From Lactobacillaceae bacterium (GTDB lineage Bacteria > Bacillota > Bacilli > Lactobacillales > Lactobacillaceae), in contig JAITPD010000033.1 in NCBI GenBank assembly GCA_031289615.1, positions 12,123 through 76,122 of the forward strand: a DNA stretch of 64,000 nucleotides. The letters run 5' to 3'. Of the stretch, positions 38,209-51,184 are shown piece after piece. The stretch's first letter is position 1, and each line of letters starts with the position of its first letter. The notes under the pieces are model-generated. The model searched no databases and had not been told where the DNA came from. It saw only the letters and a program-made list of their open reading frames with translations. A program made the position numbers and the translations under genes.

Positions 38209-41004
38209 ATGAAAATCAAAGATACATTGAACATCGGGAAGACTAAATTCCCAATGCGTGGAAATTTGCCCACGACTGAACTTCAACGTGAAAACGTGTG
38301 GTTTGAAAATAAAGTTTATGAGGCACGCCAAAAGTTAAATGAAGGTAAGCCAACGTTTATGTTGCATGATGGACCTCCATACGCCAACGGGAATATTCAT
38401 ATCGGACACGCAATGAATAAAATCTCTAAAGATATTATCGTGCGTTATAAGTCGATGAATGGATTCCGCGCGCCATACGTTCCTGGTTGGGATACGCATG
38501 GTTTACCAATCGAGCAACAGTTGACAAAGAAGGGTAAGGATCGCAAGACGGTTGGTCCTGTGATCTGGCGCAAGATGGCCGAAGAATTCGCACGTAAGCA
38601 AGTCAAGACGCAAATGGCTGACTTTAAGCGTTTGGGTGTTTCAGCAGATTGGGATCATCCTTATTTAACTTTGTTGCCAGAATTTGAAGCAGCACAAATC
38701 CGCGTCTTTAAAGAGATGGCGAACAAGGGTTACATTTACAAGGGTAAGAAGCCAGTCTTTTGGTCATGGTCTTCTGAATCAGCTTTGGCAATGTCAGAGA
38801 TTGAATACCATGATGTGACTTCGCCCACTGCTTTTTATGCCGAGCAAGTTAAAGATGGCAAGGGAAAGGTTGATTCTGACACGTATTTCGTAGTTTGGAC
38901 GACGACTCCTTGGACGATTCCTGGTTCGCGTGGAATCTCTGTTAATGCAAACTTCAAGTATTCACAAGTACAACCAGCTGACTCAGATAAAAAGTATTTG
39001 ATTGCGACTGAATTGTTGGCAAAAGATGCTGAGATGTTTGGCTGGGACGAATATGAAATCTTAAATGAATTTACTGGGCAAGAGCTTGAATACATGACAG
39101 CGCAACACCCATTTTATGATGATGTTGAATTGCTCGTGATGTTAGCTGATTTCGTAACGTTGGATGCCGGAACTGGGTTGGTTCACACGGCACCAGGCTT
39201 TGGTGAAGATGACTTCTTTGTTGGTCAGAAATATGGTATTGAAGTTGCGGTGCCAGTTGATTATCAAGGAAAGATGTTGCCAGAAGCTGGGGCTGACTTT
39301 GATGGATTGTTCTATGAAGATGCAAACGCTGTGGCTTTGGATAAGTTGGCTAAGCAAGGAGCATTGTTGAAGCAAGAAGACATTACCCACTCATATCCAT
39401 TTGACTGGCGGACGAAGAAGCCGGTGATTTATCGGGCAGTTCCGCAATGGTTTGCTTCAATTGAACCTTTCCGTGAGACATTGCTAAATGAGTTGGATCA
39501 AGTGACTTTTTCTCCTGAATGGGGTAAGAAGCGTTTGTACAATATGCTAAAGGACCGTGGCGACTGGGTCATTTCTCGTCAACGGGTCTGGGGTGTGCCA
39601 TTGCCAATTTTTTATGCTGAAGATGGAACGGCGATTTTGGAAGAAGAGACAATCGAACACGTTGCGCAGTTGTTTGCTGTGCATGGTTCGACGTATTGGT
39701 TTGAAAAAGAAGCTAAGGATCTTTTGCCAGAAGGTTATACAAATGAGCATTCGCCAAATGGAATCTTCACCAAAGAAACTGACATCATGGACGTCTGGTT
39801 TGATTCAGGAACTTCACATCAAGGAGTCATGGCAGCTCGTCCTGACTTGGAATTCCCAGCAGATTTGTATCTGGAAGGTTCAGACCAATATCGTGGATGG
39901 TTTAATTCATCATTGATTACTTCTGTCGCTGCGACAGGTCATGCGCCGTACAAGAGTATCCTTTCACAAGGGTTCACGTTGGACGGTAACGGCGAGAAGA
40001 TGTCAAAATCAATTGGAAACACGATTGAGCCTAATGAAGTCGTTAAGGAGATGGGGGCTGAAATTATTCGTTTGTGGGTAACTTCGGTTGATTCTTCACA
40101 AGATGTGCGGGTCTCAATGGATTTGTTGAAGCAAACTTCTGAAACTTACCGCAAGATTCGCAACACGATGCGCTTCTTGTTGGCCAATACGGCAGACTTT
40201 AATCCAGCTGAGGATGCAGTTGCTTATGCTGATTTGACGCCGGTTGATCAATATTTCTACGCGCTCTTTAATGAGTTGGTTAAGACTTTGAAGGCGAGCT
40301 ATGATCGTTATGATTTCCAAGCGGTGAACAAGGCAGTGATTAACTTTATCAACGTGGATTTGTCAGCGTTCTACCTTGATTTCAACAAGGATGTCTTGTA
40401 TGTCGAGGCGCCAAAGGGTCACTTGCGACGTTCAGCACAAACGGTTTTGTACAAGATTTTGGTGGACTTGAATAAGCTCTTGTTGCCAATTTTGCCTCAT
40501 ACGGCCGAAGAAGTCTTTGAGTATTTGCCAGCTAAAGATGGTGACTTTGCTTACTTGACTGAAATGGCGCAGGTTGAAGACTTGGGTGACACGACCACGT
40601 TGCTTGCAAATTGGACTAAGTTTATGGACGTCCGTGATGCGGTCAATAAGGCTTTGGAAGTGGCGCGTAATGAAGAGTTGATTGGTAAGCCGGCCGAAGC
40701 AGCGGTGACGTTGTATTTGACTGACGAACAAGCTACTTTGATTGATGCGCTTGATCAAGATGTGCGTGTAACATTGTTGGTTTCACAGTTGGCATTGAAG
40801 AATGTGGCTGAGGCTGACGGACAAGTTCCAGAATATGATGGATATAAGATTCTGGTGCAACATGCAGCTGGTGAAATGTCGCCACGGGATCGCATGTATC
40901 ACACGGATTTGGGTGCTGATGCTGATTTCCCAGAATTGTCAGCACATGAAGCAGAAATCATTCGTGAAAACTTCCCTGAGGCCTTGACTGAGGGATTAGA
41001 ATAA
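38209..41004 (+). CDS. ileS: Isoleucine--tRNA ligase
   Basis: ATG 38209. HIGH motif ([16 protein letters not shown]), KMSKS ([10 protein letters not shown]) and a CP1 editing domain. About 930 aa. Confidence 0.95.
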
Positions 41005-41015
41005 AAAAATTTAAG

Positions 41016-41054
41016 GCAGATTCTCTTGATTGGTTGAGGGGATCTGCTTTTTTA
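41016..41054 (+). terminator. ileS rho-independent terminator
   Basis: GCAGATTCTCTT/GAGGGGATCTGC stem (with G-U pairs) followed by T6 (41048-41053). Confidence 0.7.
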
Positions 41055-41070
41055 TCGCTTGCAAAATGGA

Positions 41071-41121
41071 TTTATCGCTCGTTTTATCGCTCAAAAAACG
41101 AGCGATAAAGTGAGCGATAAA
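41071..41121. repeat. 22-bp-arm inverted repeat built from TTTATCGCT 9-mers (a fifth 9-mer lies at 41051-41059)
   Basis: TTTATCGCT occurs at 41051, 41071 and 41083 (+). AGCGATAAA occurs at 41101 and 41113. The arms TTTATCGCTCGTTTTATCGCTC / GAGCGATAAAGTGAGCGATAAA pair at 20 of 22 positions around the loop AAAAAAC. Confidence 0.9.
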
Positions 41122-41252
41122 TTTCTTTGCTAGATGTGGATGCTCATATAAGGATACTTCCAGAGCGAGGACCTCACAATCTTGTGAAAAAAATGATAAA
41201 ATGAATAAAAGCATCGCAAAATATTGCGTTCTTTTTGAGGAGGAATAAAATC

Positions 41253-41342
41253 ATGAGCAACGAGCAACGAGCAACGAGCAACGAGCAACGAGCAACGAGC
41301 AACGAGCAACGAGCAACGAGCAACGAGCAACGAATAATCTAA
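41253..41342 (+). CDS. Candidate 29-aa leader mini-ORF, M(SNEQRAT)3SNEQRII*, made almost entirely of the 7-nt repeat
   Basis: A strong SD GAGGAGG (41237-41243) sits 9 nt before ATG 41253. The frame is open through the repeat to TAA 41340-41342. Whether it is translated is inference. Confidence 0.4.
   Translation: MSNEQRATSNEQRATSNEQRATSNEQRII
41256..41332. repeat. Perfect heptanucleotide microsatellite, (AGCAACG) x 11
   Basis: 77 nt of uninterrupted 7-nt periodicity, counted by hand. It ends 81 nt upstream of the Type ISP start codon. Confidence 0.97.
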
Positions 41343-41413
41343 CTACCAATACATATTTGGTAGCTAGTGATATTTTAGCTACCAGTGTTACCGCAGAAAG
41401 TGCGGTGGCATAA

Positions 41414-44400
41414 ATGACTACTTTTAATGAATTAATTCATCAAATTAATGATACTGCTGGGGATGTTCAACGCGAACGTGGAACATTGTTTGAAAAACTC
41501 GTAGTCGCTTATTTAAAAAATGAGCCCACCTACAAGAATCTGTACACAGATGTTTGGATGCTAAGCGAGGTTCCTGCAGAATATGGAATTCCAAACAAAG
41601 ATACGGGTGTTGACATCGTTGCTCGCCAAAAGAATGGGGAGCTAACAGCTGTTCAAGCGAAGTTTTATGACCACAAAGTTGGTAAGGATCAAATTAATTC
41701 TTATGTGGCAGAACTTGGGAAGCATTACTATCAAAGTGGGATGATAGTTTCAACGGTTGACGATTGGAATAGCAATGCCCTTGAGACGATTAAAGATAAT
41801 GAAAAAAATATTGAAATAATTGGGTTGTCTGACTTACGAAATTCTCAAATTGATTGGTCGCAATTTACTTTTGAGCGGCCAGAACATGTCGTGGTAAAAA
41901 CTCACAAAACATTGCATGGCTATCAAGAAATAGCGTTGCAGAATGCACTTAAGCATTTTGAAGAACATGATCGCGGACAGTTAATCATGGCGCCGGGAAC
42001 TGGTAAAACTTTTACTAGTTTGAAAATCACAGAAGCATTGGCAAATAAAGCAGGTCGACAGTTTAAAGTATTGTATTTGGTTCCAAGTATTCAGTTGCTA
42101 AGTCAAACTTTGCGTGGTTGGAATAATGATACTGAGTTAACCATCACAAGCATGGCTGTTACATCAGATCGTGATGCATCACGTAATAACGATAATACAG
42201 AAGATATTAAGGGATCTGATATTGGGTACCCAGCGACGACTTCGACTCCCAAGTTGCTAGAGAATTGGGCTGATATTCAAAAGCAGAGCAAGCAGGATGA
42301 GCTGTTTGTTGTTTTTAGTACGTATCAAAGTATTGATGTAATTGGAAAAGCGCAGAAGCAAGGGTTCCCAGAGTTTGATTTCATTATTGCGGATGAAGCG
42401 CACCGAACAACTGGTGCTCATGAATCAAATCGCGAAGATAGTGCGTTTTCAAAAGTGCATGACAATGCGAACGTTCAAGGTGCTAAGCGGATGTACCAAA
42501 CAGCAACGCCAAAGATTTACGGTGAATCTGCTAAGAAAACCGCTAAAGAGAAGAGTATTCTGGTTTCTTCGATGGATGACGAAAGCAAGTATGGTGAAGT
42601 TTTTTATCGGATGGGGTTCGGGCAAGCGGTTTCTCATAACATTTTGACGGACTACAAAGTCATGGTGTTGGCCGTGGATGAGGCTGCGATTCAAAAAGAT
42701 ATGCAACGGACACTTGCTGATCCAGAAAACGGACTGAACATAGATGATGTTGGCCGAATTGTTGGGATTTGGAACGGGATGATGCGCCGAAATGGGTACA
42801 AAAATCCTGTTAAAAATAGTGCCTATGACGGAGCTCCTCTGGAACGCGCAATTGCCTTTACCCGGACAATTGCTGATTCAAAAAAAGTTTCGGATCAGTT
42901 CGTCAATGTTGTTAATGAATATTTGGGTGGAGACGAGGCGGAAGAACATGTTTCATTGGCGATGCGTCACGCTGATGGAACCATGAATGCTTTGCAAAAA
43001 GGTGAAATATTAGATTGGCTAGCTGACCCAAACAAGCCAGATGATGAAGCGCGAATTGTTTCAAATGTGCGTTTCCTAACTGAAGGAATTGATGTACCAA
43101 CTTTGGATGCGGTTATTTTCTTAGCGCCTAAAAAGTCTCAAGTCGATATTGTGCAAGCAGTTGGCCGAATCATGCGTAAGGCGCCAGACAAAGAATATGG
43201 CTATATTATTTTGCCGATTGTAATTCCGACTGACGAAACACCGGAATCAATTTTGGATAATAATAAAAATTATGAAGCGGTGTGGCAGGTCATCAATGCT
43301 TTGCGTTCAGTCGATGAACGTTTTGAAGCGATGATTGATAAGATTAATATCGCTAAGCCAAAGCAGTTAAAGGTGATTGGAATTGGTGGTGCGCCGAGTG
43401 AAATTAATGATCATGAAGGTACAGTTGGAGCTGGTGAAGAACCTAATAACGTGCAAACAGAGCTAAACCTTGAATGGGATAAGTTTGAGGGAGCTATTTA
43501 CGGAAAGATTGTTGAAAAGGTTGGCGACCGGAAGTATCTCGAAAATTGGTCGAAGGATGTTGCTAAGATTGCACAGCGTCAGATTGATTGGATTAAGACG
43601 AAGCTAACGGATAAGACAGACCCAATATCAGTTGAGTTCAAGAAGTTCGTGGCGTCATTGAAGCACAACATCAACGAAAGTATTGATGAGAATCAGGCAG
43701 CTGAAATGTTGTCACAGCATTTGATCACGAAACCAGTTTTTGAGGCACTGTTTGATGAGTATAGTTTTGTGAATAATAACCCAGTTTCTCAAGCAATGGA
43801 AACGATTATCGTAGAGCTTGAAAAGGCTGGCTTTGCGAAGGAACAAGAAAATCTGGAACCGTTGTATGAATCGGTGCGGATGCGAGCAGAAGGGGTTGAA
43901 AAGTCAGCGGATAAGCAAAAGATCATTGTGACCCTGTATGATAAGTTCTTTAGTACGGCCTTTAAGGAGACGACTGAACGGCTTGGAATTGTCTTTACGC
44001 CGGTTGAAGTGGTTGATTTCATTGTGCATTCAGTTGATGATGTCTTGAAGGAACACTTTGGTAAGTCTTTGGCGAGCGAAGGTGTGCACATTTTGGATCC
44101 GTTTACTGGAACGGGAACTTTTATCACGCGGACGTTGACTTATTTGAAGGAACAAATGGATGCCGGTGAGATTACCTTGGCGGATATTACGCGCAAGTAT
44201 TCGCAAGAGCTCCATGCCAATGAGATTGTGCTGTTGTCGTACTATATTGCGGCAATTAACATTGAGTCGACTTTTGATGAAATTTATGATGCTGATAATA
44301 CGACGTACTTCCCGTTTGAAGGAATTGTGTTGACGGATACGTTTGAGAGTACAGAAAATGAGGATACTTTGGATGATGCTTATTTTGGTACCAATGATGA

Positions 44401-46123
44401 ACGCTTGAAGCGCCAGCAGGAAGTGCCAATTACGGCGATTATTGGTAATCCACCGTATTCAAAGATAAAATCTTCAGCTAATGACTTCACGAGTATTCAA
44501 AATTACCCAATTTTAGATTTTAAAATTCAAAAAACATATGCAAAATATACAAATGCTAATTTAAAAAATTCGCTACAAGATTCGTATATAAGAGCAATAA
44601 GATGGAGTACCGATCGTATTGGTGATACTGGAGTGATTGCATTTATAACTAATAACGGGTATTTAGATTCCCCATCTTTGAATGGGGTTCGTAGAGTGTT
44701 GACAAAAGAATTTAATCACATTTATATTGTTGACCTCAAAGGTGCAGCTCGTGGTCTTAGTTCTGAATCTATAAAAAAACAAGGCAAAAATGTTTTTGAT
44801 ATTATGACTGGAGTAGCAGTAGTTGTGTTAGTCAAAGATGGTTCAGATAAACATATTGTTAATTACCATGATATAGGTGATGGCCTATCAAAAAAAGATA
44901 AATTTAACAGTTTATCTAGTAGTGATATTAGCAGTTTATCATTTAATAGAGTTATTTTAGACGAGAATGGTGATTGGATAAATCAAAGAGATAAAAACTA
45001 TGATATGTATTACTCATTAGGTGGTGAAGATAATAGCATTTTCCAAAATAAATTAGTAGGATTTAATACCAATAGAGATTTTTGGGCATTTAATTTTTCT
45101 GAATCAAATTTATCAGAAAACATTAAAAGAATGGTTAATAATTATAATTCAGAAATTAGTAGATTAGACAGCATAAATGAAACTCATGATAAGATAAACA
45201 ATTTAAATAATGATGAATCATTTATTTCATGGTCTCGTGGGTTGAAAAGAAAGTATGTTAAAGGTGAGCAATTATTCTTTAATGAAGGTAGCATTATGCT
45301 TACTCAAGCAAGACCCTTTACTAAAAAATATGTTTATTATGATAGAAATTTAGTTGAAATGCCGGGAAAATTTGATTCCGTTTTAGAAGATAACGGATTG
45401 TTGTTGTATACACCAGGTCCTGGAGGATCAAAAACATTTTCAGCATTAATTGCTAGAGGTCCTATAAATTTACAAGGATTTGGATTTGCTTCTAAAACAC
45501 AAACTTATCCTATTAAAATTAAAGGCTCAGGGTTAGTCGGTACAAGTGCTTATAATGTTACAGATTCAGCAAAGCAATATTTTGGATTACCAGATGAAAA
45601 TTTAATCTATTATTCGTATGCCGTTATGCATTCGTTGGAGTATGTTAACAAATATGAAGATGAATTATATAAAATAGTACCAAGGATTCCATTATTAAAA
45701 GATAAAGAAAAGTACGTTGAAATTGGTCGCCAACTTGCTGGCTTACATCTGAACTACGAAAATCAACCAAGGTGGGCTGGAGTTCAAGTGGAAATTACAG
45801 GTAGTGAGCCAAATTATCGTGTGAAGAAGATGAAACACCCTAAAAAAGGTGTACTGGATACGATTGTTTACAATGACAGCATCACTATAAAAAATATTCC
45901 GGAGTCAGCCTATGATTATGTCGTTAATGGACGTCCGGCGATTGAGTGGATTATTGATCAGTATCAAATCAAGACGGATAAAAAATCAGGTATAACTGAC
46001 GATCCAAATGAATTCAGCGATGATCCAAAGTATATTTTAAATCTGTTGCTGTCCGTGATCACGGTAAGTATGGAAACTAATGAGTTGGTTAGTCAGTTGC
46101 CAGAGTTTGAGGTGATAGAATGA
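41414..46123 (+). CDS. Type ISP restriction-modification enzyme (single polypeptide: Mrr-like nuclease, SF2 translocase, N6-adenine methyltransferase, target-recognition domain); LlaGI/LlaBIII-like
   Basis: PD-(D/E)xK core DTGVDIVA...AVQAK (~41603-41662). Walker A APGTGKT (~41989-42012). DEAH (42392-42403). TAT. VQAVGRIMR. SAM motif LDPFTGTGTF (~44093-44122). NPPY (44447-44458). Conserved C-terminal tail (..VVNGRPAIEWIIDQYQ..). 1569 aa. Confidence 0.85.
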   Translation: MTTFNELIHQINDTAGDVQRERGTLFEKLVVAYLKNEPTYKNLYTDVWMLSEVPAEYGIPNKDTGVDIVARQKNGELTAVQAKFYDHKVGKDQINSYVAELGKHYYQSGMIVSTVDDWNSNALETIKDNEKNIEIIGLSDLRNSQIDWSQFTFERPEHVVVKTHKTLHGYQEIALQNALKHFEEHDRGQLIMAPGTGKTFTSLKITEALANKAGRQFKVLYLVPSIQLLSQTLRGWNNDTELTITSMAVTSDRDASRNNDNTEDIKGSDIGYPATTSTPKLLENWADIQKQSKQDELFVVFSTYQSIDVIGKAQKQGFPEFDFIIADEAHRTTGAHESNREDSAFSKVHDNANVQGAKRMYQTATPKIYGESAKKTAKEKSILVSSMDDESKYGEVFYRMGFGQAVSHNILTDYKVMVLAVDEAAIQKDMQRTLADPENGLNIDDVGRIVGIWNGMMRRNGYKNPVKNSAYDGAPLERAIAFTRTIADSKKVSDQFVNVVNEYLGGDEAEEHVSLAMRHADGTMNALQKGEILDWLADPNKPDDEARIVSNVRFLTEGIDVPTLDAVIFLAPKKSQVDIVQAVGRIMRKAPDKEYGYIILPIVIPTDETPESILDNNKNYEAVWQVINALRSVDERFEAMIDKINIAKPKQLKVIGIGGAPSEINDHEGTVGAGEEPNNVQTELNLEWDKFEGAIYGKIVEKVGDRKYLENWSKDVAKIAQRQIDWIKTKLTDKTDPISVEFKKFVASLKHNINESIDENQAAEMLSQHLITKPVFEALFDEYSFVNNNPVSQAMETIIVELEKAGFAKEQENLEPLYESVRMRAEGVEKSADKQKIIVTLYDKFFSTAFKETTERLGIVFTPVEVVDFIVHSVDDVLKEHFGKSLASEGVHILDPFTGTGTFITRTLTYLKEQMDAGEITLADITRKYSQELHANEIVLLSYYIAAINIESTFDEIYDADNTTYFPFEGIVLTDTFESTENEDTLDDAYFGTNDERLKRQQEVPITAIIGNPPYSKIKSSANDFTSIQNYPILDFKIQKTYAKYTNANLKNSLQDSYIRAIRWSTDRIGDTGVIAFITNNGYLDSPSLNGVRRVLTKEFNHIYIVDLKGAARGLSSESIKKQGKNVFDIMTGVAVVVLVKDGSDKHIVNYHDIGDGLSKKDKFNSLSSSDISSLSFNRVILDENGDWINQRDKNYDMYYSLGGEDNSIFQNKLVGFNTNRDFWAFNFSESNLSENIKRMVNNYNSEISRLDSINETHDKINNLNNDESFISWSRGLKRKYVKGEQLFFNEGSIMLTQARPFTKKYVYYDRNLVEMPGKFDSVLEDNGLLLYTPGPGGSKTFSALIARGPINLQGFGFASKTQTYPIKIKGSGLVGTSAYNVTDSAKQYFGLPDENLIYYSYAVMHSLEYVNKYEDELYKIVPRIPLLKDKEKYVEIGRQLAGLHLNYENQPRWAGVQVEITGSEPNYRVKKMKHPKKGVLDTIVYNDSITIKNIPESAYDYVVNGRPAIEWIIDQYQIKTDKKSGITDDPNEFSDDPKYILNLLLSVITVSMETNELVSQLPEFEVIE

Positions 46124-48996
46124 AGGAACATCAAGATAAATTAAGAGCCTTATCTGCCAATGATAACCTAGCCGGTGAACATTATGATAAATATAAAAGG
46201 TATTTAGATGATGCCCTTAGTGAAGATAATCAAAGAAAAATCAAAAACATTGCCATAACTGGAAAATACGGGAGTGGCAAGTCCTCAATTATTGACACAT
46301 ATTTTAAAGATAATGATGCTTACCTGCGTGTTAGTTTTGCGACGTTTGATAGTGATGAAAAGTCTAAGGGAATTAATAACAAAGAATCTAATAATAGTGA
46401 GTCTGATAAAGTTATAAAGAATGATGGCGGGCCAAATATTTTTGCAAATATTATTAATCAGATAATTTATCAGTTGGATGTTAATAAAATACCTTTAACA
46501 AAGTTTAAGGTGAAGAAGCCACTTTCTAAAGATACTAAAGTTGGGTTGATAATTGAGTTGGCTTTAATATCAACGTTATTCGTTCATTTTGGTTTGGGAA
46601 TGTCAAAGTACGTCATAAGTATTCGACTTATCATAATTTTTGCATTAGGTTTAGCGATAGTATGGAAAGCCTTATCAAAATTTGAAATCAATCGTTTAAA
46701 ACTATCTTTTAAACTAGTTGACACTGAAATTGATATGGGAAGGGATGATTTATTTGAACGGTACACTGATGAAATAATTTATCTCTTTGAAAACTCTGGT
46801 AAATCAATTTTAATTATTGAAGATCTTGATAGGTTTAATGACTTAAAGATTTTCGAAAAATTACGTGAGTTAAATACAAAACTCAACTATACCAGTAAAA
46901 CAAATTGGCGCTTCATATATTTGATTAAAGATGATTTATTTGTAAATAAAAATGATCGAGTTAAGTTTTTTGATGAAATCATCCCAGTAATTCCGTTTAT
47001 AACCTCCAATAATTCGTTTGATAAATTACGTGATCTATTTGAAGGAGATGGCATTGATATAAAACTGCTGAGGATTTTGGGTGTCTATATAGATGATTTT
47101 AGAATTTTGCTCAATATAAGCAATGAGTACAAAGTATATTTTGGTGCAGCAGAGAATCAAAATAAAAATGAATTACTCGCATTAATTGCATATAAAAACT
47201 TGTTTCCAACTGAATTCGATGATTTACAGAACGGTAAAGGAAAGCTTGCAAAAATTGTTAATGAAAGTAATCAGAATATAAGAGATCAGATTCAAAAATT
47301 GAATGAGCAACGTGAAGAACTAAAACTAAAAAAAGAGACGGTAGCTGCCACGAATGAAGTTGAATTTTTAACTCTTTGGTCGATGAATAATGGTTTAGAT
47401 TTTTATCAGTCTGGGCGAGGTGGTTACAATAATGTACCCAATTTGAGTATCTCCAATATTGCACATGCAAAGCAAGTAATAGAGCAAGATCTTCAAATAG
47501 GAAGTCTTAACCAACAAAATGCACCAAAATATTCAGAATACAAGCAAGCTAATGCTGATTATGCTGATGGACTTGCAGTTGTGACATCATTTGATGGGCA
47601 TATTGTGGAAATTTCAAACAAGATCGAACAATTATCTGAGCTAAAGTTAAAGGACGTTGATCGTAACGCGATTGAGGGGGAATTTAGCGATATATTGTTT
47701 GCTTTAATTAAGTATGGGTTTATTACCGGGGATTATTTAAACGTTATTAACCATTATTATGGTGATCAAAATAATCTAGTATTTATGAAAAGAATTTTTG
47801 CAGGCCTTGAGAAGGATAAGTTTGACTTGAAAATCACTGATTTGGCTGGGCTGAATGAAAATTTGGATGACACAGATTTTGATAAGAATGAAATATTAAA
47901 TTTTGACTTGTTTAATTGGTTGTATTCAACTAACAATGACAAAAGGCTTACTCAGATGATTAAAACTGCTAATCATGGTGAGAATACTTTTATTGAAGAA
48001 GCAATTAATCTAAATCCCGAATTATTTGATGCAGTATTAAAGGTGCTTCCAAATATTCACTTTGATTTAACTAAATTACTTGAAATTAATGTGAATAAGA
48101 TTATTTTGGAAAATCTGTATGATGATACCAAATCAAATGGAAACATACTCGTTGGCTGGATTTCTAACTGGAATCAAGGACAGTACATTGAACTACTGAA
48201 CAACGAAACTGTCTATGGACACTTAAAAAAAGCTGTAATTGAAAATCTATTAAATAAATTGGAATTGAATCAAGTGTCTCACAAAGACTTATGGACTAAT
48301 ATTTTGCATAATCATAAGGCAATTGTTGATGAAAATAATGTAATTATATATTTTGACGAATTTGGGATTGATATAAACCTAATCAATTTTATTAATGAGG
48401 ATAATATTGAATTTAAAGGTAATTTATCACAAGAATTTTTTGATGATGTAATTGCTGTTAATGAAATCAACGATGATAAATTTAGTGAGATATGGGCATC
48501 CTATCAATTTGATAAAAAGTATTCAGTTGAAGATATTATGGATCAAGAAATAAACAAGTTGAGTCTATTGTTATCGTATGGAGTGTTAACAATGACACAA
48601 CAGATGATTGAATATATTGTGAGTCAAAAAATTGAATTACCCAAAATATATAATAACCATAATTTCAAAAATTTTGTTCTGGAAAATAAAATTAAGTTAA
48701 ATGATATTTTAGTTAAAGATTTATTGAAGCAAGATGATGAATATAATGAACAAATCTTCATGCGATCAATTCCAGCATTAACGAAATCAACAATGATTGA
48801 TTATGTTGAAAAAAATATTTTATTTGATGGCAAGATATTAAAAATTATGAATCATCACAGAGGGGCTCAAAACTTAAAAGTTGATGAAACAGAAATGTCA
48901 ATAAAACTATTTAAATGGATGCAAGAAAATGGATACATTGAAAGTTATGATGTTTTGCAGGGCAAAATGAAACCGAATTTTAAGAAGAAAAATTAA
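46120..48996 (+). CDS. KAP/YobI-type P-loop NTPase with two TM helices inserted in the NTPase domain (Tmn-like), plus a long unassigned C-terminal region
   Basis: ATGA start/stop overlap with the ISP gene, and SD GAGGTGA at 46109-46115. Walker A GKYGSGKSS (~46261-46288). Hydrophobic helices at ~46540-46680. Walker B ILIIEDLDRF (~46807-46836). KFFDEIIPVIPF segment. Confidence 0.7.
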   Translation: MKEHQDKLRALSANDNLAGEHYDKYKRYLDDALSEDNQRKIKNIAITGKYGSGKSSIIDTYFKDNDAYLRVSFATFDSDEKSKGINNKESNNSESDKVIKNDGGPNIFANIINQIIYQLDVNKIPLTKFKVKKPLSKDTKVGLIIELALISTLFVHFGLGMSKYVISIRLIIIFALGLAIVWKALSKFEINRLKLSFKLVDTEIDMGRDDLFERYTDEIIYLFENSGKSILIIEDLDRFNDLKIFEKLRELNTKLNYTSKTNWRFIYLIKDDLFVNKNDRVKFFDEIIPVIPFITSNNSFDKLRDLFEGDGIDIKLLRILGVYIDDFRILLNISNEYKVYFGAAENQNKNELLALIAYKNLFPTEFDDLQNGKGKLAKIVNESNQNIRDQIQKLNEQREELKLKKETVAATNEVEFLTLWSMNNGLDFYQSGRGGYNNVPNLSISNIAHAKQVIEQDLQIGSLNQQNAPKYSEYKQANADYADGLAVVTSFDGHIVEISNKIEQLSELKLKDVDRNAIEGEFSDILFALIKYGFITGDYLNVINHYYGDQNNLVFMKRIFAGLEKDKFDLKITDLAGLNENLDDTDFDKNEILNFDLFNWLYSTNNDKRLTQMIKTANHGENTFIEEAINLNPELFDAVLKVLPNIHFDLTKLLEINVNKIILENLYDDTKSNGNILVGWISNWNQGQYIELLNNETVYGHLKKAVIENLLNKLELNQVSHKDLWTNILHNHKAIVDENNVIIYFDEFGIDINLINFINEDNIEFKGNLSQEFFDDVIAVNEINDDKFSEIWASYQFDKKYSVEDIMDQEINKLSLLLSYGVLTMTQQMIEYIVSQKIELPKIYNNHNFKNFVLENKIKLNDILVKDLLKQDDEYNEQIFMRSIPALTKSTMIDYVEKNILFDGKILKIMNHHRGAQNLKVDETEMSIKLFKWMQENGYIESYDVLQGKMKPNFKKKN

Positions 48997-49011
48997 TATG
49001 TGCAGTCCTAG

Positions 49012-49060
49012 TTAAACTTTTGAATTGGGTTGGTATATTTTACATGAAAAGTTTAATTTT
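49012..49060 (+). terminator. Weak candidate terminator after the NTPase gene
   Basis: Perfect 10-bp but AT-rich arms TTAAACTTTT/AAAAGTTTAA (49012-49021/49047-49056), a 25-nt loop, then T4. Confidence 0.3.
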
Positions 49061-49224
49061 AGTTCGGAATTATCGTATATACGGTTAAAACTGGTGGAAT
49101 AATTTTGTAAAAAATTTTGTTAAAACAAAAGCTATTAGGTGATGATGGACGTTAAACGTTTATATAACAGCCTAAATATTCAGCATATTAAACTCAAATA
49201 ATGAAATGAAAGAAGGCATTGAAA

Positions 49225-49659
49225 ATGATTAGACAGAAGGTAACGTATAGCGATTTAAACGCCAAGCAACAGGAGCTTTTTAACTTTACGAAGCTTGCGA
49301 GTGCATTGATTGATTACAATCTGGTTGCCATAAAATTAGATGATGATTATCTTGGTGCTGATTTTTTGATTTATGACGCTGATAACGATGGTAAAACAAT
49401 TAAGGTTCAACTTAAGGGGAGAATTAATGTTGAGTCTAAGTACATTGGTAAAAATTTGTATATGGCATTTCCTTTAGAAACGCATGGGGATGAGTGGGTA
49501 ATTATTGACCATGATAAGTTGGCCGAATTGTGGATGACAGGGAATGAGTCTAAAAGTTGGAACCACGGTCAAGGCGGATATTCAGCGAAGTCAGTACCTA
49601 AACAGATTATGGCACAAGTAATTGATATGAGTCTGTATGGTATTTTGAAAATTCACTAA
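49225..49659 (+). CDS. Small hypothetical protein with a PD-(D/E)xK-like signature
   Basis: ATG 49225 behind AGAAGG. GADFLIYDADNDGKTIKVQLKGR gives a D...(x)n...QxK spacing like the nuclease core of the ISP N-terminus (D..VQAK). No other motif seen. Confidence 0.35.
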   Translation: MIRQKVTYSDLNAKQQELFNFTKLASALIDYNLVAIKLDDDYLGADFLIYDADNDGKTIKVQLKGRINVESKYIGKNLYMAFPLETHGDEWVIIDHDKLAELWMTGNESKSWNHGQGGYSAKSVPKQIMAQVIDMSLYGILKIH

Positions 49660-49746
49660 TTCGTTAATGCAAGTGTTCAAGCTTTATTCACCCCACCTCA
49701 CCCATTCAGGCGTACAATATATGTATACAAAGTGAGGTAAAAAATT

Positions 49747-50040
49747 ATGGGCTTTTTCAAACAATTTCTATCAGGTTTAGGCGATACGACCGTGAGCGGT
49801 GATGACAATTTTGCATCGTTCTCTGATGGTACGACGGCGAACAAGGTAGGCGACACCACGTTTTATTCTGATGGGACAAGCAAGACGACGATTGGTGACA
49901 CGGAATTTTTGAGCAACGGTGTCACTGGTAACAAGATTGGCGATACGACATTTTACTCGGACGGAACTACCAAAACCGAGATTGGCGGGTCAACGTTCAT
50001 GTCCGGGGACGGTGCGGACGATGACGCCAAGATGTGGTAA
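49747..50040 (+). CDS. 97-aa Gly/Asp/Thr-rich protein made of four ~15-aa tandem repeats (GDTTFYSDGTxKTxI)
   Basis: GTGAGGT RBS. The repeats are visible in the translation. No signal peptide or TM helix. A strong terminator follows. Confidence 0.4.
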   Translation: MGFFKQFLSGLGDTTVSGDDNFASFSDGTTANKVGDTTFYSDGTSKTTIGDTEFLSNGVTGNKIGDTTFYSDGTTKTEIGGSTFMSGDGADDDAKMW

Positions 50041-50050
50041 ATAAGATGAG

Positions 50051-50083
50051 AAATCCACTGGCTGCGGCGGGTGGATTTTTTTA
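50051..50083 (+). terminator. Rho-independent terminator
   Basis: AAATCCAC/GTGGATTT stem with a GC-rich loop, then T7. Confidence 0.7.
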
Positions 50084-50197
50084 TAAAGATGATCTGGTTG
50101 AGGTGCCGCTATAGCCAGGAATTAAAAAAATTCAAATTGGATAAAATATGTATATCACGGTACAATAATGGTAATAAATTTGTTTTGGAGGGACAAC

Positions 50198-50392
50198 ATG
50201 ACAACACAAGATAAATTAGAAAAAATTAATGCCGTACAAGACGAACTGCGTGAAATGTATTATGCAGGTGATTTTGGTGAATTGTTGCGTTCTGGTATAT
50301 CTCAGGACATGATTGATTTTTTACTACAACTAAAAGATTATTATCGGGCAATTGATCAAAAGAAAATCATTGATGGACCGTTTGTAATATAA
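50198..50392 (+). CDS. Hypothetical 64-aa helical protein
   Basis: ATG 50198 behind GGAGGG with 8-nt spacing. A TTGGAT-N18-TACAAT promoter-like pair lies at ~50137-50166. No motif recognised. Confidence 0.35.
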   Translation: MTTQDKLEKINAVQDELREMYYAGDFGELLRSGISQDMIDFLLQLKDYYRAIDQKKIIDGPFVI

Positions 50393-50441
50393 TTTCGAAA
50401 TCAAGTATCCCCAAAACATCTAAATTCCCTCACCACAAACC

Positions 50442-50490
50442 AAAGCTTAGGCCCCGCGCTCGTCGCAGGATTTCCTAAGCTTTTTCTTTT
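50442..50490 (+). terminator. Probable terminator at the island's right edge
   Basis: AAAGCTTAGG/CCTAAGCTTT 10-bp arms with a 22-nt GC-rich loop, then TTTTTCTTTT. Confidence 0.55.
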
Positions 50491-50664
50491 AGTAAGCTTA
50501 ATAAAATGGGCATAATTGTCTGTTAAAATGGAATAACGAACTAGAAATAGCTCGATTTAAAACTGAAATACTCACTTTAAATACGCATAAACAGTCCGGG
50601 TGTCACAGGCGGAAAAGCTTGTGATAGCAACGTTTTGGAGCGTAATTAATTTTCTTAAGAAACG

Positions 50665-50693
50665 TTGACAAATTAGTTGGGTTTATGTATTAT
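50665..50693 (+). promoter_or_regulatory. Sigma-A-type promoter of the fab cluster
   Basis: TTGACA (50665-50670), a 17-nt spacer, then TATTAT (50688-50693), 50 nt upstream of fabZ1. Confidence 0.55.
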
Positions 50694-50706
50694 TAGTTTA
50701 TCGGAT

Positions 50707-50723
50707 ATTTCGATGTTCGAAAT
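50707..50723. promoter_or_regulatory. Candidate FabT operator (17-bp palindrome ATTTCGA-TGT-TCGAAAT)
   Basis: Perfect 7-3-7 inverted repeat between the -10 and the RBS. Same 17-bp architecture as the streptococcal FabT box. Its half-site ATTTCGATG recurs upstream of fabK (53410-53418). Confidence 0.35.
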
Positions 50724-50743
50724 GTTTTGAAAGGAGGTTGATC

Positions 50744-51184
50744 ATGGCAGTTCTGACAACAACGGAAATTATGGACATCATCCCAAACCGTTATCCAATC
50801 TTGTATATGGATAAGGTGACGGAGATGATCCCTGATGAATCATTGGTCGCCGTTAAAAACGTGACAATCAATGAACAATTTTTCCAAGGTCATTTTCCCG
50901 GTAATCCTGTAATGCCAGGGGTTTTAATTATTGAATCATTAGCGCAAGCCGCTTCTATTTTGATTTTGAAATCTCCTCAATTTGCCGGTAAAACAGCTTA
51001 TATGACAGGAATTGATGATGCGAAGTTTAAGCAGATGGTGCGACCTGGTGATGTGCTTGAATTGCACGTTAAACTTGGAGCCCTTCGCGGTAACATGGGA
51101 ACTGTGGATGTTGAAGCGCAAGTAGATGGTAAAACAGCTACTAAAGCAACTTTGATGTTCGTGGTGGCGCCGGATGAAAAATAG
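50744..51184 (+). CDS. fabZ: 3-hydroxyacyl-ACP dehydratase paralogue (FabZ1 / FabN-like)
   Basis: ATG 50744 behind GGAGG. IPNRYPILYMD, FFQGHFPGNPVMPGVLIIESLAQ hot-dog motif. Confidence 0.8.
   Translation: MAVLTTTEIMDIIPNRYPILYMDKVTEMIPDESLVAVKNVTINEQFFQGHFPGNPVMPGVLIIESLAQAASILILKSPQFAGKTAYMTGIDDAKFKQMVRPGDVLELHVKLGALRGNMGTVDVEAQVDGKTATKATLMFVVAPDEK

What the first reader, a model, noticed from the sequence alone, without database searches (positions are those of the whole stretch)
41414..48996. Type ISP restriction-modification enzyme translationally coupled to a KAP/YobI-type membrane NTPase: candidate two-gene defence module
Gene 1 (1569 aa) shows the following domains in order. An Mrr-like PD-(D/E)xK core (D..VQAK). 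An SF2 motor (APGTGKT, DEAH at 42392-42403, TAT, QAVGRIMR). A gamma-class N6-A methyltransferase (DPFTGTGTF, then NPPY at 44447-44458). A variable region and a conserved C-terminal tail. This is the architecture and size of the Type ISP enzymes LlaGI/LlaBIII, an established family that acts as a stand-alone single polypeptide. Gene 2 starts at ATG 46120, overlapping the gene 1 TGA (ATGA), behind an SD embedded in gene 1. Its product has Walker A GKYGSGKSS and Walker B ILIIEDLDRF separated by two hydrophobic helices. TM segments inserted within the P-loop domain are the hallmark of KAP NTPases (Aravind et al. 2004). A KAP-type single gene, Tmn, was reported as anti-phage (Gao et al. 2020). Roughly the last two-thirds of gene 2 is Asn/Ile/Lys/Asp-rich with no motif I recognise. 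Each half alone is known or plausible as a defence gene. The tight start/stop overlap, the shared putative switch upstream and the shared low-GC segment suggest they are expressed as one unit. One possibility is a membrane-bound second-line (abortive or sensing) partner to a DNA-translocating restriction enzyme. I am not aware that this pairing has been described.
Basis: partly seen in the sequence, partly recalled or inferred. Interest (0 to 1): 0.8.

Follow-up and report, generated by a model that had tools for sequence, protein, structure and literature searches.

The report
Restriction enzyme stacked with Tmn-like defence gene
A LlaGI-type single-protein restriction enzyme and a membrane-anchored Tmn/YobI-type anti-phage ATPase sit in one tightly packed operon, but comparison with about 70 related loci shows two independent, already known defence systems stacked together, not a dedicated two-gene system.

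Summary
Gene 1 (41414-46123) is an intact Type ISP restriction-modification enzyme, 70% identical to LlaGI. Gene 2 (46120-48996) is a YobI/Tmn-family P-loop NTPase with two membrane helices between Walker A and B and a helical-repeat C-terminus. The genes overlap by ATGA. No terminator-like structure was found at the junction.

None of 56 other ISP loci carries a YobI gene. Apart from the index case, 1 of 12 contexts of the lactic-acid-bacteria YobI clade has an ISP upstream. In that case a strong terminator hairpin, a 188-nt spacer and a separate start codon divide the genes. The three closest ISPs checked (76-78% identical, similar specificity region) lack YobI.

In another ISP subclade, the site just after the ISP stop codon holds varied complete defence systems: SIR2-HerA, CBASS, Gabija. 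Each starts 1-6 nt after the stop, behind a ribosome-binding site encoded in the last ISP codons.

Best reading: a small defence islet between ileS and fabZ stacks two autonomous systems in one transcript.

A side finding: an upstream leader ORF holds 11 copies of a 7-nt repeat followed by two hairpins. It probably makes ISP expression phase-variable. The sequenced state is predicted OFF.

The parts
41173..41202 (+). Promoter-like site (CTCACA-18-TAAAAT, TG-extended -10) upstream of the leader ORF. Weak evidence only.
   Evidence: Consensus scan. Such sites are no more frequent in the region than in shuffles.
41237..41342 (+). Leader ORF. It has a ribosome-binding site GAGGAGG at 41237-41243 and ATG at 41253. 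It contains 11 perfect copies of AGCAACG at 41256-41332. With 11 copies the ORF stops at TAA 41340-41342 (29 aa).
   Evidence: Sequence. TRF reports 11.3 copies at 100% match, the only strong tandem repeat in the 64 kb. The frame simulation gives the outcome by copy number. When the number is divisible by 3, the leader reads on to TAA 41411-41413, which abuts the ISP ATG. Other numbers stop at 41335 or 41340.
41358..41411 (+). Two adjacent RNA hairpins (41358-41384 and 41385-41411). The second buries the only ribosome-binding-like sequence of the ISP gene (GGTGG, 41404-41408) and ends at the TAA that abuts the ISP ATG.
   Evidence: The fold of 41334-41440 gives -31.5 kcal/mol, z = -4.7, and 0 of 200 shuffles fold as well. 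No U-tract follows, so it is not a canonical intrinsic terminator.
41414..46123 (+). Gene 1: Type ISP restriction-modification enzyme (Mrr nuclease, SF2 ATPase, coupler, gamma-class N6-adenine methyltransferase, target-recognition domain, conserved tail).
   Evidence: 70% identity to LlaGI, Q93R01; full-length match to 4xqk and 5ffj.
46109..46123 (+). Junction: GAGGTG ribosome-binding site encoded by the conserved ISP tail (..EFEVIE*), a 5-nt spacer, then ATGA start/stop overlap.
   Evidence: The junction RNA is unstructured (z = 0.28). An equivalent built-in site (GAGGTGGAGGAG from ..FEVEE*) precedes other second genes in other ISP loci.
46120..48996 (+). Gene 2: YobI/Tmn-family transmembrane P-loop NTPase. 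Walker A is at 46261-46284, the two membrane helices at about 46528-46674, and Walker B at 46807-46833. The C-terminal ~550 aa are helical repeats.
   Evidence: AlphaFold2 model, mean pLDDT 79.5; about 90 over aa 580-950; hhalign against the ~1250-aa YobI clade: probability 100, E 4e-108, query aa 3-939.
49225..49659 (+). orf144, a small ORF of unknown family in the same orientation with no terminator before it. It may lie on the same transcript.
   Evidence: No hit in Pfam, PADLOC or NCBIfam. Absent from all 140 other loci.
49747..50040 (+). orf97, a small repeat-containing ORF (GDTTFYSDGT..) with a sub-threshold DUF2963 hit.
50048..50081 (+). Hairpin followed by a run of seven U: the first convincing + strand terminator after the ISP start, and the likely end of the transcription unit.
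   Evidence: Fold -20.9 kcal/mol, z = -4.2. In contrast, 48997-49140, right after gene 2, is unstructured (z = 0.40).

Best explanation
The region 41005-50737 is a small defence islet inserted between the core genes ileS and fabZ. It carries two autonomous, already known kinds of anti-phage system stacked in one transcription unit.

The first is a LlaGI-like Type ISP enzyme. By homology, it methylates its own asymmetric site and cuts unmodified DNA after ATP-driven translocation and collision of two enzymes.

The second is a Tmn-like YobI NTPase. By homology with Tmn, it is a membrane-anchored oligomer whose variable helical arm senses a phage protein and then burns ATP and collapses the cell's physiology.

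The second gene is translated from a ribosome-binding site that lies in the last codons of the ISP gene. Together they give layered defence: restriction first, and an abortive-type response for phages that escape it. No direct interaction between the proteins is needed.

The tight junction reflects how second systems are placed directly behind ISP genes, not co-evolution of ISP with YobI.

Expression of the ISP is probably under a stochastic switch. Slippage in the 7-nt repeat changes the leader reading frame. Only when the copy number is divisible by 3 do ribosomes run through the two hairpins and stop right at the ISP start codon. With 11 copies, the sequenced state is predicted OFF or low.

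Shown here: gene structures, family memberships, distribution of the pairing, RNA folds and frame arithmetic. Inferred: enzymatic activities, co-transcription, switching and layered action.
For: Identity of the parts: ISP; YobI/Tmn.

Autonomy of Tmn and absence of a conserved operon: 10.64898/2026.03.01.708804.

Islet borders: FtsZ, YlmH, DivIVA and IleS upstream; FabZ, MarR and FabH downstream.

The pairing is not conserved:
- 0 of 56 ISP loci (40 after dereplication) carry YobI.
- 0 of 32 YobI genome loci have an ISP within 10 kb.
- The three closest ISPs checked (76-78% identical, 55-81% identical in the specificity region) lack YobI.
- Close YobI relatives sit in a prophage, next to conjugative-element genes, after GmrSD, after a Type I system plus EcsC, or beside no defence gene.

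The only other ISP-YobI pair (P0002, loci L033-L038):
- It has a 188-nt spacer holding a 14-bp hairpin plus U5 (z = -5.2) and its own GTG start.
- Its ISP specificity region is unrelated (26-48% identity).
- Direct repeats of about 50 nt flank that ISP gene.

General stacking behind ISP: SIR2+HerA, CBASS (2TM-NUDIX effector plus cyclase), GajA+GajB and unknown genes begin 1-6 nt after the ISP stop, mostly in the subclade with tail ..FEVEE. A conserved FtsK-like/RepB flank lies to the right.

Switch. It is unique among 83 ISP loci. The closest precedent is the S. gallolyticus Pil1 leader-peptide repeat switch (PMC3894217). A single-polypeptide restriction-modification enzyme that phase-varies is known (Cj0031, PMC4889913).
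Against: - In a neighbour-joining tree the window YobI and P0002 are sisters. The ISP-YobI order may therefore have persisted from a common ancestor down to 46% identity, which hints at some benefit of linkage.
- 2 of 13 YobI-clade contexts with an ISP directly upstream is more than a naive expectation, although one of the two is the index case.
- The sample of ISP loci is skewed towards one gut-metagenome subclade. It holds few lactic-acid-bacteria loci with long flanks.
- A near-consensus promoter-like site inside gene 1 (44699-44728, 11 of 12 matches) could give gene 2 its own transcript. That would weaken the 'one unit' part.
- No expression, methylation or phage data exist.
- Repeat-length variation could not be observed, because the only other assembly breaks inside the repeat.
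Confidence: 0.7

Rival explanations
1. Dedicated two-layer module. In this view YobI is a functional partner or guardian of the ISP enzyme. For example, it could fire when the ISP is blocked by an anti-restriction protein, as PrrC does for EcoprrI, or it could be activated by stalled or colliding ISP motors.
For: - ATGA overlap and shared transcript features.
- A second, sister ISP-YobI pair exists.
- One relative follows a Type I system.
- The guardian concept is established for PrrC and PARIS (PMC12707154).
- Tmn co-occurs and synergises with other ATPase-containing systems (10.1101/2022.08.21.504612).
Against: - No co-occurrence: 0 of 56 ISP loci, and 1 of 12 YobI contexts besides the index case.
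- A terminator separates the genes in the only other pair.
- The closest ISPs lack YobI.
- Tmn works alone and senses a phage protein through its variable arm.
- Tmn-driven ATP collapse would starve an ATP-dependent ISP, not help it (inference).
- The same slot behind ISP holds complete autonomous systems such as Gabija and CBASS.
Confidence: 0.12
2. Chance neighbours with no shared expression. In this view the overlap is an incidental product of a deletion. Gene 2 runs from its own internal promoter, and the upstream repeat is a neutral hypervariable tract.
For: - A promoter-like site with 11 of 12 matches lies inside gene 1 at 44699-44728.
- Promoter-like sites are no more frequent than in shuffles, so nothing can be concluded from them in either direction.
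- The pairing is rare.
Against: - No terminator lies between the genes, the junction is unstructured, and a ribosome-binding site sits at ideal spacing.
- The repeat lies in a proper small ORF with a strong ribosome-binding site.
- Its long-frame stop codon abuts the ISP ATG, behind unusually stable hairpins (z = -4.7). That is hard to credit to chance.
- It is the only such repeat in the 64 kb and among 83 ISP loci.
Confidence: 0.13
3. ISP genes as a platform with a swappable second system. In this view the conserved ISP tail with its built-in ribosome-binding site is a selected docking point. It expresses whatever defence system recombines in behind it, so 'ISP plus X' is a real modular architecture and YobI is one of many X.
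For: - About 22 of 40 dereplicated ISP loci have the next gene's ATG 1-15 nt after the ISP stop.
- At least seven different families occupy that position.
- The site GAGGTGGAGGAG lies in the last ISP codons.
- The window shows the same geometry.
Against: - The pattern is concentrated in one ISP subclade on one type of small mobile element (FtsK-like plus RepB). It may therefore be a single cargo hotspot, not a property of ISPs.
- The lactic-acid-bacteria-type ISP loci sampled mostly lack a tight second gene.
- The tail sequence is conserved as protein anyway.
Confidence: 0.3

Closest known systems
[quoted passage not shown]
   Same: Same single-polypeptide order of Mrr nuclease, SF2 ATPase, coupler, methyltransferase and recognition domain. 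70% identity to LlaGI. Full-length match to the solved structures. All catalytic motifs are intact.
   Different: Chromosomal islet, not a plasmid. Different specificity region: 24-49% identity to LlaGI over aa 1001-1400. Preceded by a repeat-containing leader ORF seen in none of 82 other ISP loci. Directly followed by an overlapping YobI gene.
Tmn, the YobI-family transmembrane NTPase defence system (Gao et al. 2020; Wu et al. preprint 10.64898/2026.03.01.708804)
   Same: YobI P-loop domain with two membrane helices between Walker A and B. Helical-repeat C-terminal arm. Homologous over nearly the full length to the ~1250-aa clade that includes an enterobacterial member. About 29% identity to E. 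coli plasmid copies over aa 41-433.
   Different: About 300 residues shorter (958 aa against about 1270). It belongs to a clade of about 960 aa in Leuconostoc, Weissella, Lactococcus and relatives, with 46% identity to the nearest member. No member of this clade has been tested. The PADLOC Tmn model's best-scoring stretch covers only aa 211-404 (one further stretch not listed).
Restriction guardians embedded in restriction operons (PrrC in the EcoprrI Type IC locus; PARIS)
   Same: A second, abortive-type gene is physically embedded with a translocating restriction system.
   Different: PrrC is consistently linked to its restriction partner and is activated by its inhibition (PMC12707154). Here the linkage is not conserved and the YobI family senses phage proteins on its own.
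Defence hotspots in mobile elements (for example P2/P4 hotspots, PMC9122126)
   Same: A fixed position holds interchangeable complete defence systems. Behind ISP genes these are SIR2-HerA, CBASS, Gabija and unknown genes.
   Different: Here the left border of the slot is the stop codon of a restriction gene, whose last codons supply the ribosome-binding site. The window's islet has no integrase or replication gene.
Leader-peptide repeat switch of the Streptococcus gallolyticus pil1 operon (PMC3894217), and the phase-variable Type IIG enzyme Cj0031 (PMC4889913)
   Same: A short upstream ORF contains a repeat whose unit is not a multiple of 3. The leader length depends on copy number. A stem-loop downstream is opened only by ribosomes translating the long form. 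Cj0031 is a precedent for a single-polypeptide restriction-modification enzyme that phase-varies.
   Different: 7-nt unit instead of 5-nt. The hairpins have no U-tract and bury the ribosome-binding site. The predicted control is therefore translational (termination-reinitiation at TAAATG), not transcription attenuation. Cj0031 varies through a poly-G tract inside the gene.

Membership tests
Type ISP restriction-modification enzyme | Single polypeptide with Mrr-family nuclease, SF2 helicase-like ATPase, coupler, N6-adenine methyltransferase and C-terminal recognition domain, in that order | tested here: met
   Pfam domains in order, including the family-specific ISP_coupler (2.5e-48) and Type_ISP_C (6.5e-84). 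Full-length matches to LlaBIII 4xqk and LlaGI 5ffj.
Type ISP restriction-modification enzyme | Intact catalytic motifs (nuclease D..QxK, Walker A, DEAH, motif VI, methyltransferase motifs I and IV NPPY) | tested here: met
   All are present in the translation and fall in invariant columns of a 12-sequence ISP alignment.
Type ISP restriction-modification enzyme | ATP-driven translocation from an asymmetric site and cleavage on head-on collision; self-methylation of one strand | not testable with these tools
   Needs biochemistry and methylome sequencing.
YobI / Tmn transmembrane NTPase | YobI-type P-loop NTPase domain with Walker A and Walker B | tested here: met
   PF20693 at 6.9e-89, covering profile positions 1-362 of 363. 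GKYGSGKS at aa 48-55 and ILIIEDLDR at aa 230-238.
YobI / Tmn transmembrane NTPase | Two transmembrane helices inserted inside the P-loop domain, between Walker A and Walker B | tested here: met
   Two hydropathy peaks at aa ~141-160 and ~164-184. Modelled helices at 137-155 and 163-185.
YobI / Tmn transmembrane NTPase | Long alpha-helical (solenoid-like) cytosolic C-terminal arm homologous to that of Tmn-clade proteins | tested here: met
   The AlphaFold2 model shows short helices in series over aa 520-935, with pLDDT about 90 over aa 580-950. hhalign aligns query 3-939 to 18-1215 of the ~1250-aa clade (probability 100, E 4e-108). The model has no strong match in the PDB.
YobI / Tmn transmembrane NTPase | Called as Tmn by the PADLOC model | tested here: inconclusive
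   PDLC02220 scores 5.9e-46. Its best stretch covers only aa 211-404 against model positions 258-460 of 1273. PADLOC's coverage thresholds were not available.
YobI / Tmn transmembrane NTPase | Anti-phage activity, decamer formation, trigger-dependent ATP turnover and Mg2+ export | not testable with these tools
   Known only for E. coli Tmn variants (10.64898/2026.03.01.708804).
KAP NTPase (Pfam PF07693) | Match to the KAP_NTPase profile | tested here: not met
   No PF07693 hit at E<=0.01 for gene 2. Two relatives (P0018, P0025) carry precomputed PF07693 hits. The resemblance to KAP (membrane helices inside the P-loop) holds, but the family that fits is YobI.
Restriction guardian (PrrC-type) pair | Conserved genetic linkage between the guardian and its restriction system across relatives | tested here: not met
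   0 of 56 ISP loci carry YobI. 0 of 32 YobI genome loci have an ISP. 1 of 12 close-clade contexts besides the index case has an ISP, with a terminator between the genes.
Restriction guardian (PrrC-type) pair | Guardian activated when the restriction enzyme is inhibited | not testable with these tools
   Needs phage or anti-restriction challenge experiments.
Leader-peptide repeat switch (Pil1 type) | Repeat with a unit not divisible by 3, inside a small upstream ORF that has its own ribosome-binding site, so that copy number sets where the leader stops | tested here: met
   GAGGAGG, ATG at 41253 and (AGCAACG)x11. Stops fall at 41335, 41340 or 41411 according to copy number modulo 3.
Leader-peptide repeat switch (Pil1 type) | Downstream stem-loop traversed only by the long leader form | tested here: met
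   Hairpins at 41358-41384 and 41385-41411; -31.5 kcal/mol, z = -4.7. The long frame ends at 41413.
Leader-peptide repeat switch (Pil1 type) | The stem-loop is an intrinsic transcription terminator (U-tract) | tested here: not met
   No U-run follows either hairpin and no + strand terminator was called there. The second hairpin instead covers the ribosome-binding-like GGTGG, which points to translational control.
Leader-peptide repeat switch (Pil1 type) | Tract length varies within or between populations | tested here: inconclusive
   The only other assembly of this locus (Logan SRR14710898, L141) is otherwise identical but begins inside the repeat. The copy number cannot be read.

The most novel reading that the evidence does not exclude
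ISP-led operons are real two-layer immune units. The conserved ISP tail acts as a built-in translation launch pad for a swappable second system: YobI/Tmn here, and SIR2-HerA, CBASS or Gabija elsewhere. In this lineage one 7-nt repeat switch turns the restriction layer, and through translational coupling perhaps also the membrane abortive layer, ON and OFF stochastically. In the strongest form, YobI is tuned to fire when the ISP is evaded or inhibited.
Probability: 0.12. Interest if true: 0.65.

Novelty: new member of a known kind. Interest (0 to 1): 0.35.

Why it matters
The specific claim does not hold up. A new ISP-plus-KAP defence system would have added a new system type. Instead the locus adds one more example of defence systems stacking.

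Three points are still useful:
- It places an untested, shorter clade of Tmn-like proteins in lactic acid bacteria, where phage resistance has industrial value.
- It shows that the position directly after Type ISP genes often holds a second complete defence system, translated from a ribosome-binding site inside the last ISP codons. This is a cheap guide for finding new defence genes: several occupants have no known family.
- It offers a clean, testable candidate for phase variation of a Type ISP enzyme by a leader-peptide repeat switch. Such a switch would create subpopulations that differ in restriction and methylation.

Tried and rejected
- Looked for close gene 2 relatives on plasmids, including lactococcal plasmids that carry LlaGI-type enzymes. 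None was found: all 628 hits are below 60% identity and cover at most about 60% of the protein.
- Searched the PDB by sequence for gene 2: only noise.
- Fold search of the gene 2 model against the PDB: only weak AAA+/ORC/RdrA-type P-loop matches (best E 4e-3), so no functional lead for the C-terminal arm.
- Looked for direct repeats marking the islet borders: none convincing.
- Rfam scan of 40500-51000: only a spurious microRNA match.
- Tested whether orf144 is a duplicate of the ISP nuclease domain or belongs to any family. It does not, and it is absent from all other loci.
- Tested whether the 260-aa protein next to several Leuconostoc YobI genes is a conserved partner. It is absent from the window and appears to belong to a conjugative element.
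- Tried to read repeat-number variation from a second assembly. The contig breaks inside the repeat.
- Considered that the window and P0002 pairs were one inherited cassette. The ISPs are no closer than any two ISPs, their specificity regions differ, and the junctions differ. However, the YobI proteins are sisters in a neighbour-joining tree, so this stays open.
- The genome and metagenome collection scans were each used once, so a wider census was not possible.
Full report
OBSERVATION

They overlap by ATGA at 46120-46123. GAGGTG lies 5 nt upstream of the ATG.

Gene 1 carries, in order, Mrr_cat_2, ResIII/Helicase_C, the family-specific ISP_coupler, N6_Mtase and Type_ISP_C domains. It is 70% identical to LlaGI. 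It aligns along its full length with the solved structures of LlaBIII (4xqk) and LlaGI (5ffj). All of them fall in invariant columns of an alignment of 12 ISPs.

Gene 2 matches the YobI-like P-loop NTPase profile PF20693 over the whole profile (6.9e-89). It also matches the PADLOC Tmn model (5.9e-46). Walker A (aa 48-55) and Walker B (aa 230-238) flank two hydrophobic segments. These are helices 137-155 and 163-185 in an AlphaFold2 model (mean pLDDT 79.5). The C-terminal ~550 residues are a series of short helices, modelled with pLDDT about 90 over aa 580-950. A profile-profile comparison shows that the whole protein (aa 3-939) is homologous to the ~1250-aa YobI clade, which includes an enterobacterial member (probability 100, E 4e-108). 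So the 'unrecognised' two-thirds is the shortened equivalent of the Tmn arm. Gene 2 gave no Pfam KAP_NTPase hit; the fitting family name is YobI.

CONTEXT

The window comes from a Lactobacillaceae metagenome-assembled genome (names). Upstream are ftsZ, ylmH, divIVA and ileS. Downstream are fabZ, a MarR-family gene and fabH. The region 41005-50737 is therefore a small insert in core chromosome. Besides the two large genes it holds three small ORFs of no known family and no mobility gene.

GC drops from the ISP specificity region through gene 2. No + strand terminator-like site was called between 44115 and 50246, and the RNA just after gene 2 is unstructured (z = 0.40). A hairpin followed by seven U lies at 50048-50081 (z = -4.2). 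The junction RNA is unstructured (z = 0.28). One transcript from about 41200 to 50080 is therefore plausible. A near-consensus promoter-like site inside gene 1 (44699-44728) could give gene 2 an extra transcript.

IS THE PAIRING MORE THAN ADJACENCY?

Starting from YobI:
- 32 genome loci with YobI genes have no ISP within 10 kb. Four of them are of the same ~960-aa clade: Leuconostoc, Fructilactobacillus, Weissella and Convivina.
- P0013 lies next to conjugative-element genes.
- P0011 follows hsdR-hsdM-hsdS and an EcsC gene.
- P0019 lies in a prophage between an anti-repressor gene and HNH/terminase genes.
- P0017 follows a GmrSD gene.
- P0014 has no defence neighbour.
- P0004 and P0006 have no ISP upstream.
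- Only P0002, the closest relative (46% identity), follows an ISP gene.

Even in the P0002 locus the arrangement differs from the window:
- The genes are 188 nt apart, and the spacer holds a 14-bp hairpin plus U5 (z = -5.2).
- YobI has its own GTG start.
- The ISP specificity region is unrelated to the window's (26-48% identity over aa 1001-1400).
- The ISP gene is flanked by ~50-nt direct repeats that contain the terminator hairpin. This looks like the scar of an insertion.

Starting from ISP:
- 84 loci were fetched from metagenome and viral collections.
- With three further loci fetched for the closest ISPs, 56 ISP loci have at least 600 nt downstream, or 40 after dereplication. None carries YobI.
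- The closest ISPs checked (76-78% identical, 55-81% identical in the specificity region) sit in small integrase-plus-Rep elements or next to a ParE/Phd pair, without YobI.
- No close gene 2 relative is on any plasmid of PLSDB.

Leaving out the index case, which was selected because it has the pair, 1 of 12 contexts is not distinguishable from defence-island adjacency.

One caveat remains. In a neighbour-joining tree the window protein and P0002 are sisters, on a very short internal branch. The gene order may therefore be old in that small lineage.

WHAT THE TIGHT JUNCTION REALLY REFLECTS

Looking at what follows ISP genes in general gave the most informative result. In about 22 of the 40 dereplicated loci, the next gene's ATG lies 1-15 nt after the ISP stop. 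The occupants are unrelated to each other:
- a SIR2-like gene followed by HerA
- a 2TM/SMODS-associated-NUDIX effector followed by a CD-NTase (a CBASS system)
- GajA followed by GajB (Gabija)
- two different 387-aa proteins and two membrane proteins of no known family

To the right lies a conserved flank with an FtsK-like ATPase and a RepB-type replication protein. This is therefore the cargo hotspot of a small mobile element.

In that ISP subclade the protein ends ..FEVEE*, encoded as GAGGTGGAGGAG. This is a strong ribosome-binding site placed right before the stop. The window shows the same geometry with ..FEVIE* = GAGGTGATAGAATGA.

Because the occupants include complete systems that are known to work alone, the simplest reading is stacking of independent systems behind ISP genes. 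YobI/Tmn, itself a self-contained single-gene system, is one more occupant. The Tmn authors likewise report 'no conserved operon architecture' (10.64898/2026.03.01.708804).

The pattern is concentrated in one subclade. The lactic-acid-bacteria-type ISP loci in the sample mostly lack a tight second gene. I therefore treat 'ISP as a platform' as a lead, not a result.

MECHANISM

By homology (established for LlaGI and LlaBIII; PMC3553950, PMC4666363), the ISP methylates its asymmetric site. It cuts unmodified DNA after ATP-driven translocation and collision of two enzymes.

By homology with Tmn, the YobI protein would be a membrane-anchored oligomer. Its variable arm recognises a phage protein. 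It then turns over ATP, exports Mg2+ and stalls infection.

Together these would give layered defence. Nothing in the data calls for contact between the two. Tmn-driven ATP loss would, if anything, switch off an ATP-dependent ISP (inference). The known synergy of Tmn is with systems that are released by low ATP: Gabija, Septu and PrrC.

THE UPSTREAM SWITCH

At 41237-41342 there is a strong ribosome-binding site, an ATG, and 11 perfect copies of AGCAACG. This is the only strong tandem repeat in the 64 kb. It is absent upstream of 82 other ISP genes.

A frame simulation gives the outcome by copy number. With 11 copies the leader stops at 41340. With 10 or 13 copies it stops at 41335. With 9, 12 or 15 copies it reads on to TAA 41411-41413, directly abutting the ISP ATG at 41414.

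Between the two stop positions lie two hairpins (-31.5 kcal/mol, z = -4.7). The second buries the only ribosome-binding-like sequence of the ISP gene.

The predicted logic is as follows. Only the long leader brings ribosomes through the hairpins to a TAAATG junction, so ISP is ON in one of three repeat phases. The sequenced state is OFF or low.

The nearest precedent is the GCAGA leader-peptide switch of the S. gallolyticus pil1 operon (PMC3894217). Here there is no U-tract, so control is more likely translational than by attenuation. A phase-variable single-polypeptide restriction-modification enzyme is known in Campylobacter (PMC4889913).

Variation in copy number could not be checked, because the only other assembly starts inside the repeat.

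Whether gene 2 follows the switch depends on how far its translation needs ribosomes arriving from gene 1. That is open.

VERDICT

The proposed dedicated ISP-YobI module is not supported by distribution.

The locus is best described as a new member of known kinds: a LlaGI-type enzyme and a Tmn-type NTPase stacked in one operon of a small chromosomal defence islet.

The side findings deserve a short follow-up. They are the probable phase-variation switch and the recurrent placement of second systems directly behind ISP genes. They raise the interest above that of a routine defence islet.

Noticed in passing
window 41237-41413: A leader ORF with (AGCAACG)x11 is followed by two stable hairpins. 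Its long-frame stop codon abuts the ISP ATG (TAAATG). This is a candidate phase-variation switch, predicted OFF at 11 copies. The repeat is unique among 83 ISP loci and is the only strong tandem repeat in the window.
   Followed up: partly
L065-L126 (for example L070 10698-13694, L072 5299-7463, L065 6603-10480): In one ISP subclade (tail ..FEVEE*, encoded GAGGTGGAGGAG) the gene after the ISP starts 1-6 nt past the stop. It belongs to varied complete defence systems (SIR2+HerA, CBASS 2TM-NUDIX effector plus CD-NTase, GajA+GajB) or to unknown families (two different 387-aa proteins, and membrane proteins of 407 and 190 aa). A conserved FtsK-like/RepB flank lies to the right. The unknown occupants are candidate new defence genes.
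   Followed up: partly
L034 25-85 and 5108-5170: The ISP gene of the only other ISP-YobI locus is flanked by ~50-nt direct repeats (82% mean column identity; the hairpin core is nearly identical). Each repeat contains a terminator hairpin, which suggests the ISP gene was inserted as a cassette upstream of a pre-existing YobI gene.
   Followed up: partly
L043 1143-10874; L044, L045: A close YobI relative (P0011) follows hsdR-hsdM-hsdS and a 245-aa EcsC-family gene. The EcsC-YobI pair recurs in three contigs.
   Followed up: no
L131 5956-13696: A close YobI relative (P0019) is carried by a prophage, between an AntA/ANT anti-repressor gene and the HNH/terminase genes. This is a typical position for phage-borne defence cargo.
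   Followed up: no
L039 11016-11798; L132 11029-11811 and 1938-2582; L001 14510-15256: A 260-aa protein of no known family lies just downstream of YobI in two Leuconostoc-type loci and about 1.8 kb downstream in L001, next to TcpC-type conjugation genes. It is absent from the window.
   Followed up: partly
window 49225-49659 and 49747-50040: Two small ORFs lie downstream of gene 2, probably on the same transcript. orf144 has no hit in any family library and no counterpart in the 140 other loci. orf97 consists of GDTTFYSDGT-like repeats with a sub-threshold DUF2963 hit.
   Followed up: partly
window 44699-44728: A near-consensus promoter-like site (TTGACA-18-TATATT, 11 of 12 matches) lies inside the ISP specificity region, about 1.4 kb upstream of gene 2. 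It could express gene 2 independently of the upstream switch.
   Followed up: no
window 41050-41125: A 23-nt inverted repeat built from TTTATCGCT motifs (20-bp stem) lies just after ileS. It is probably the ileS terminator, but it is unusually long and repetitive.
   Followed up: no
L068, L077, L092 (just after the ISP stop): ISP loci without a second gene keep a tiny ORF (ATGATAGATTTTGGTTAA) 1-2 nt after the stop. It may be the scar of a deleted second system.
   Followed up: no
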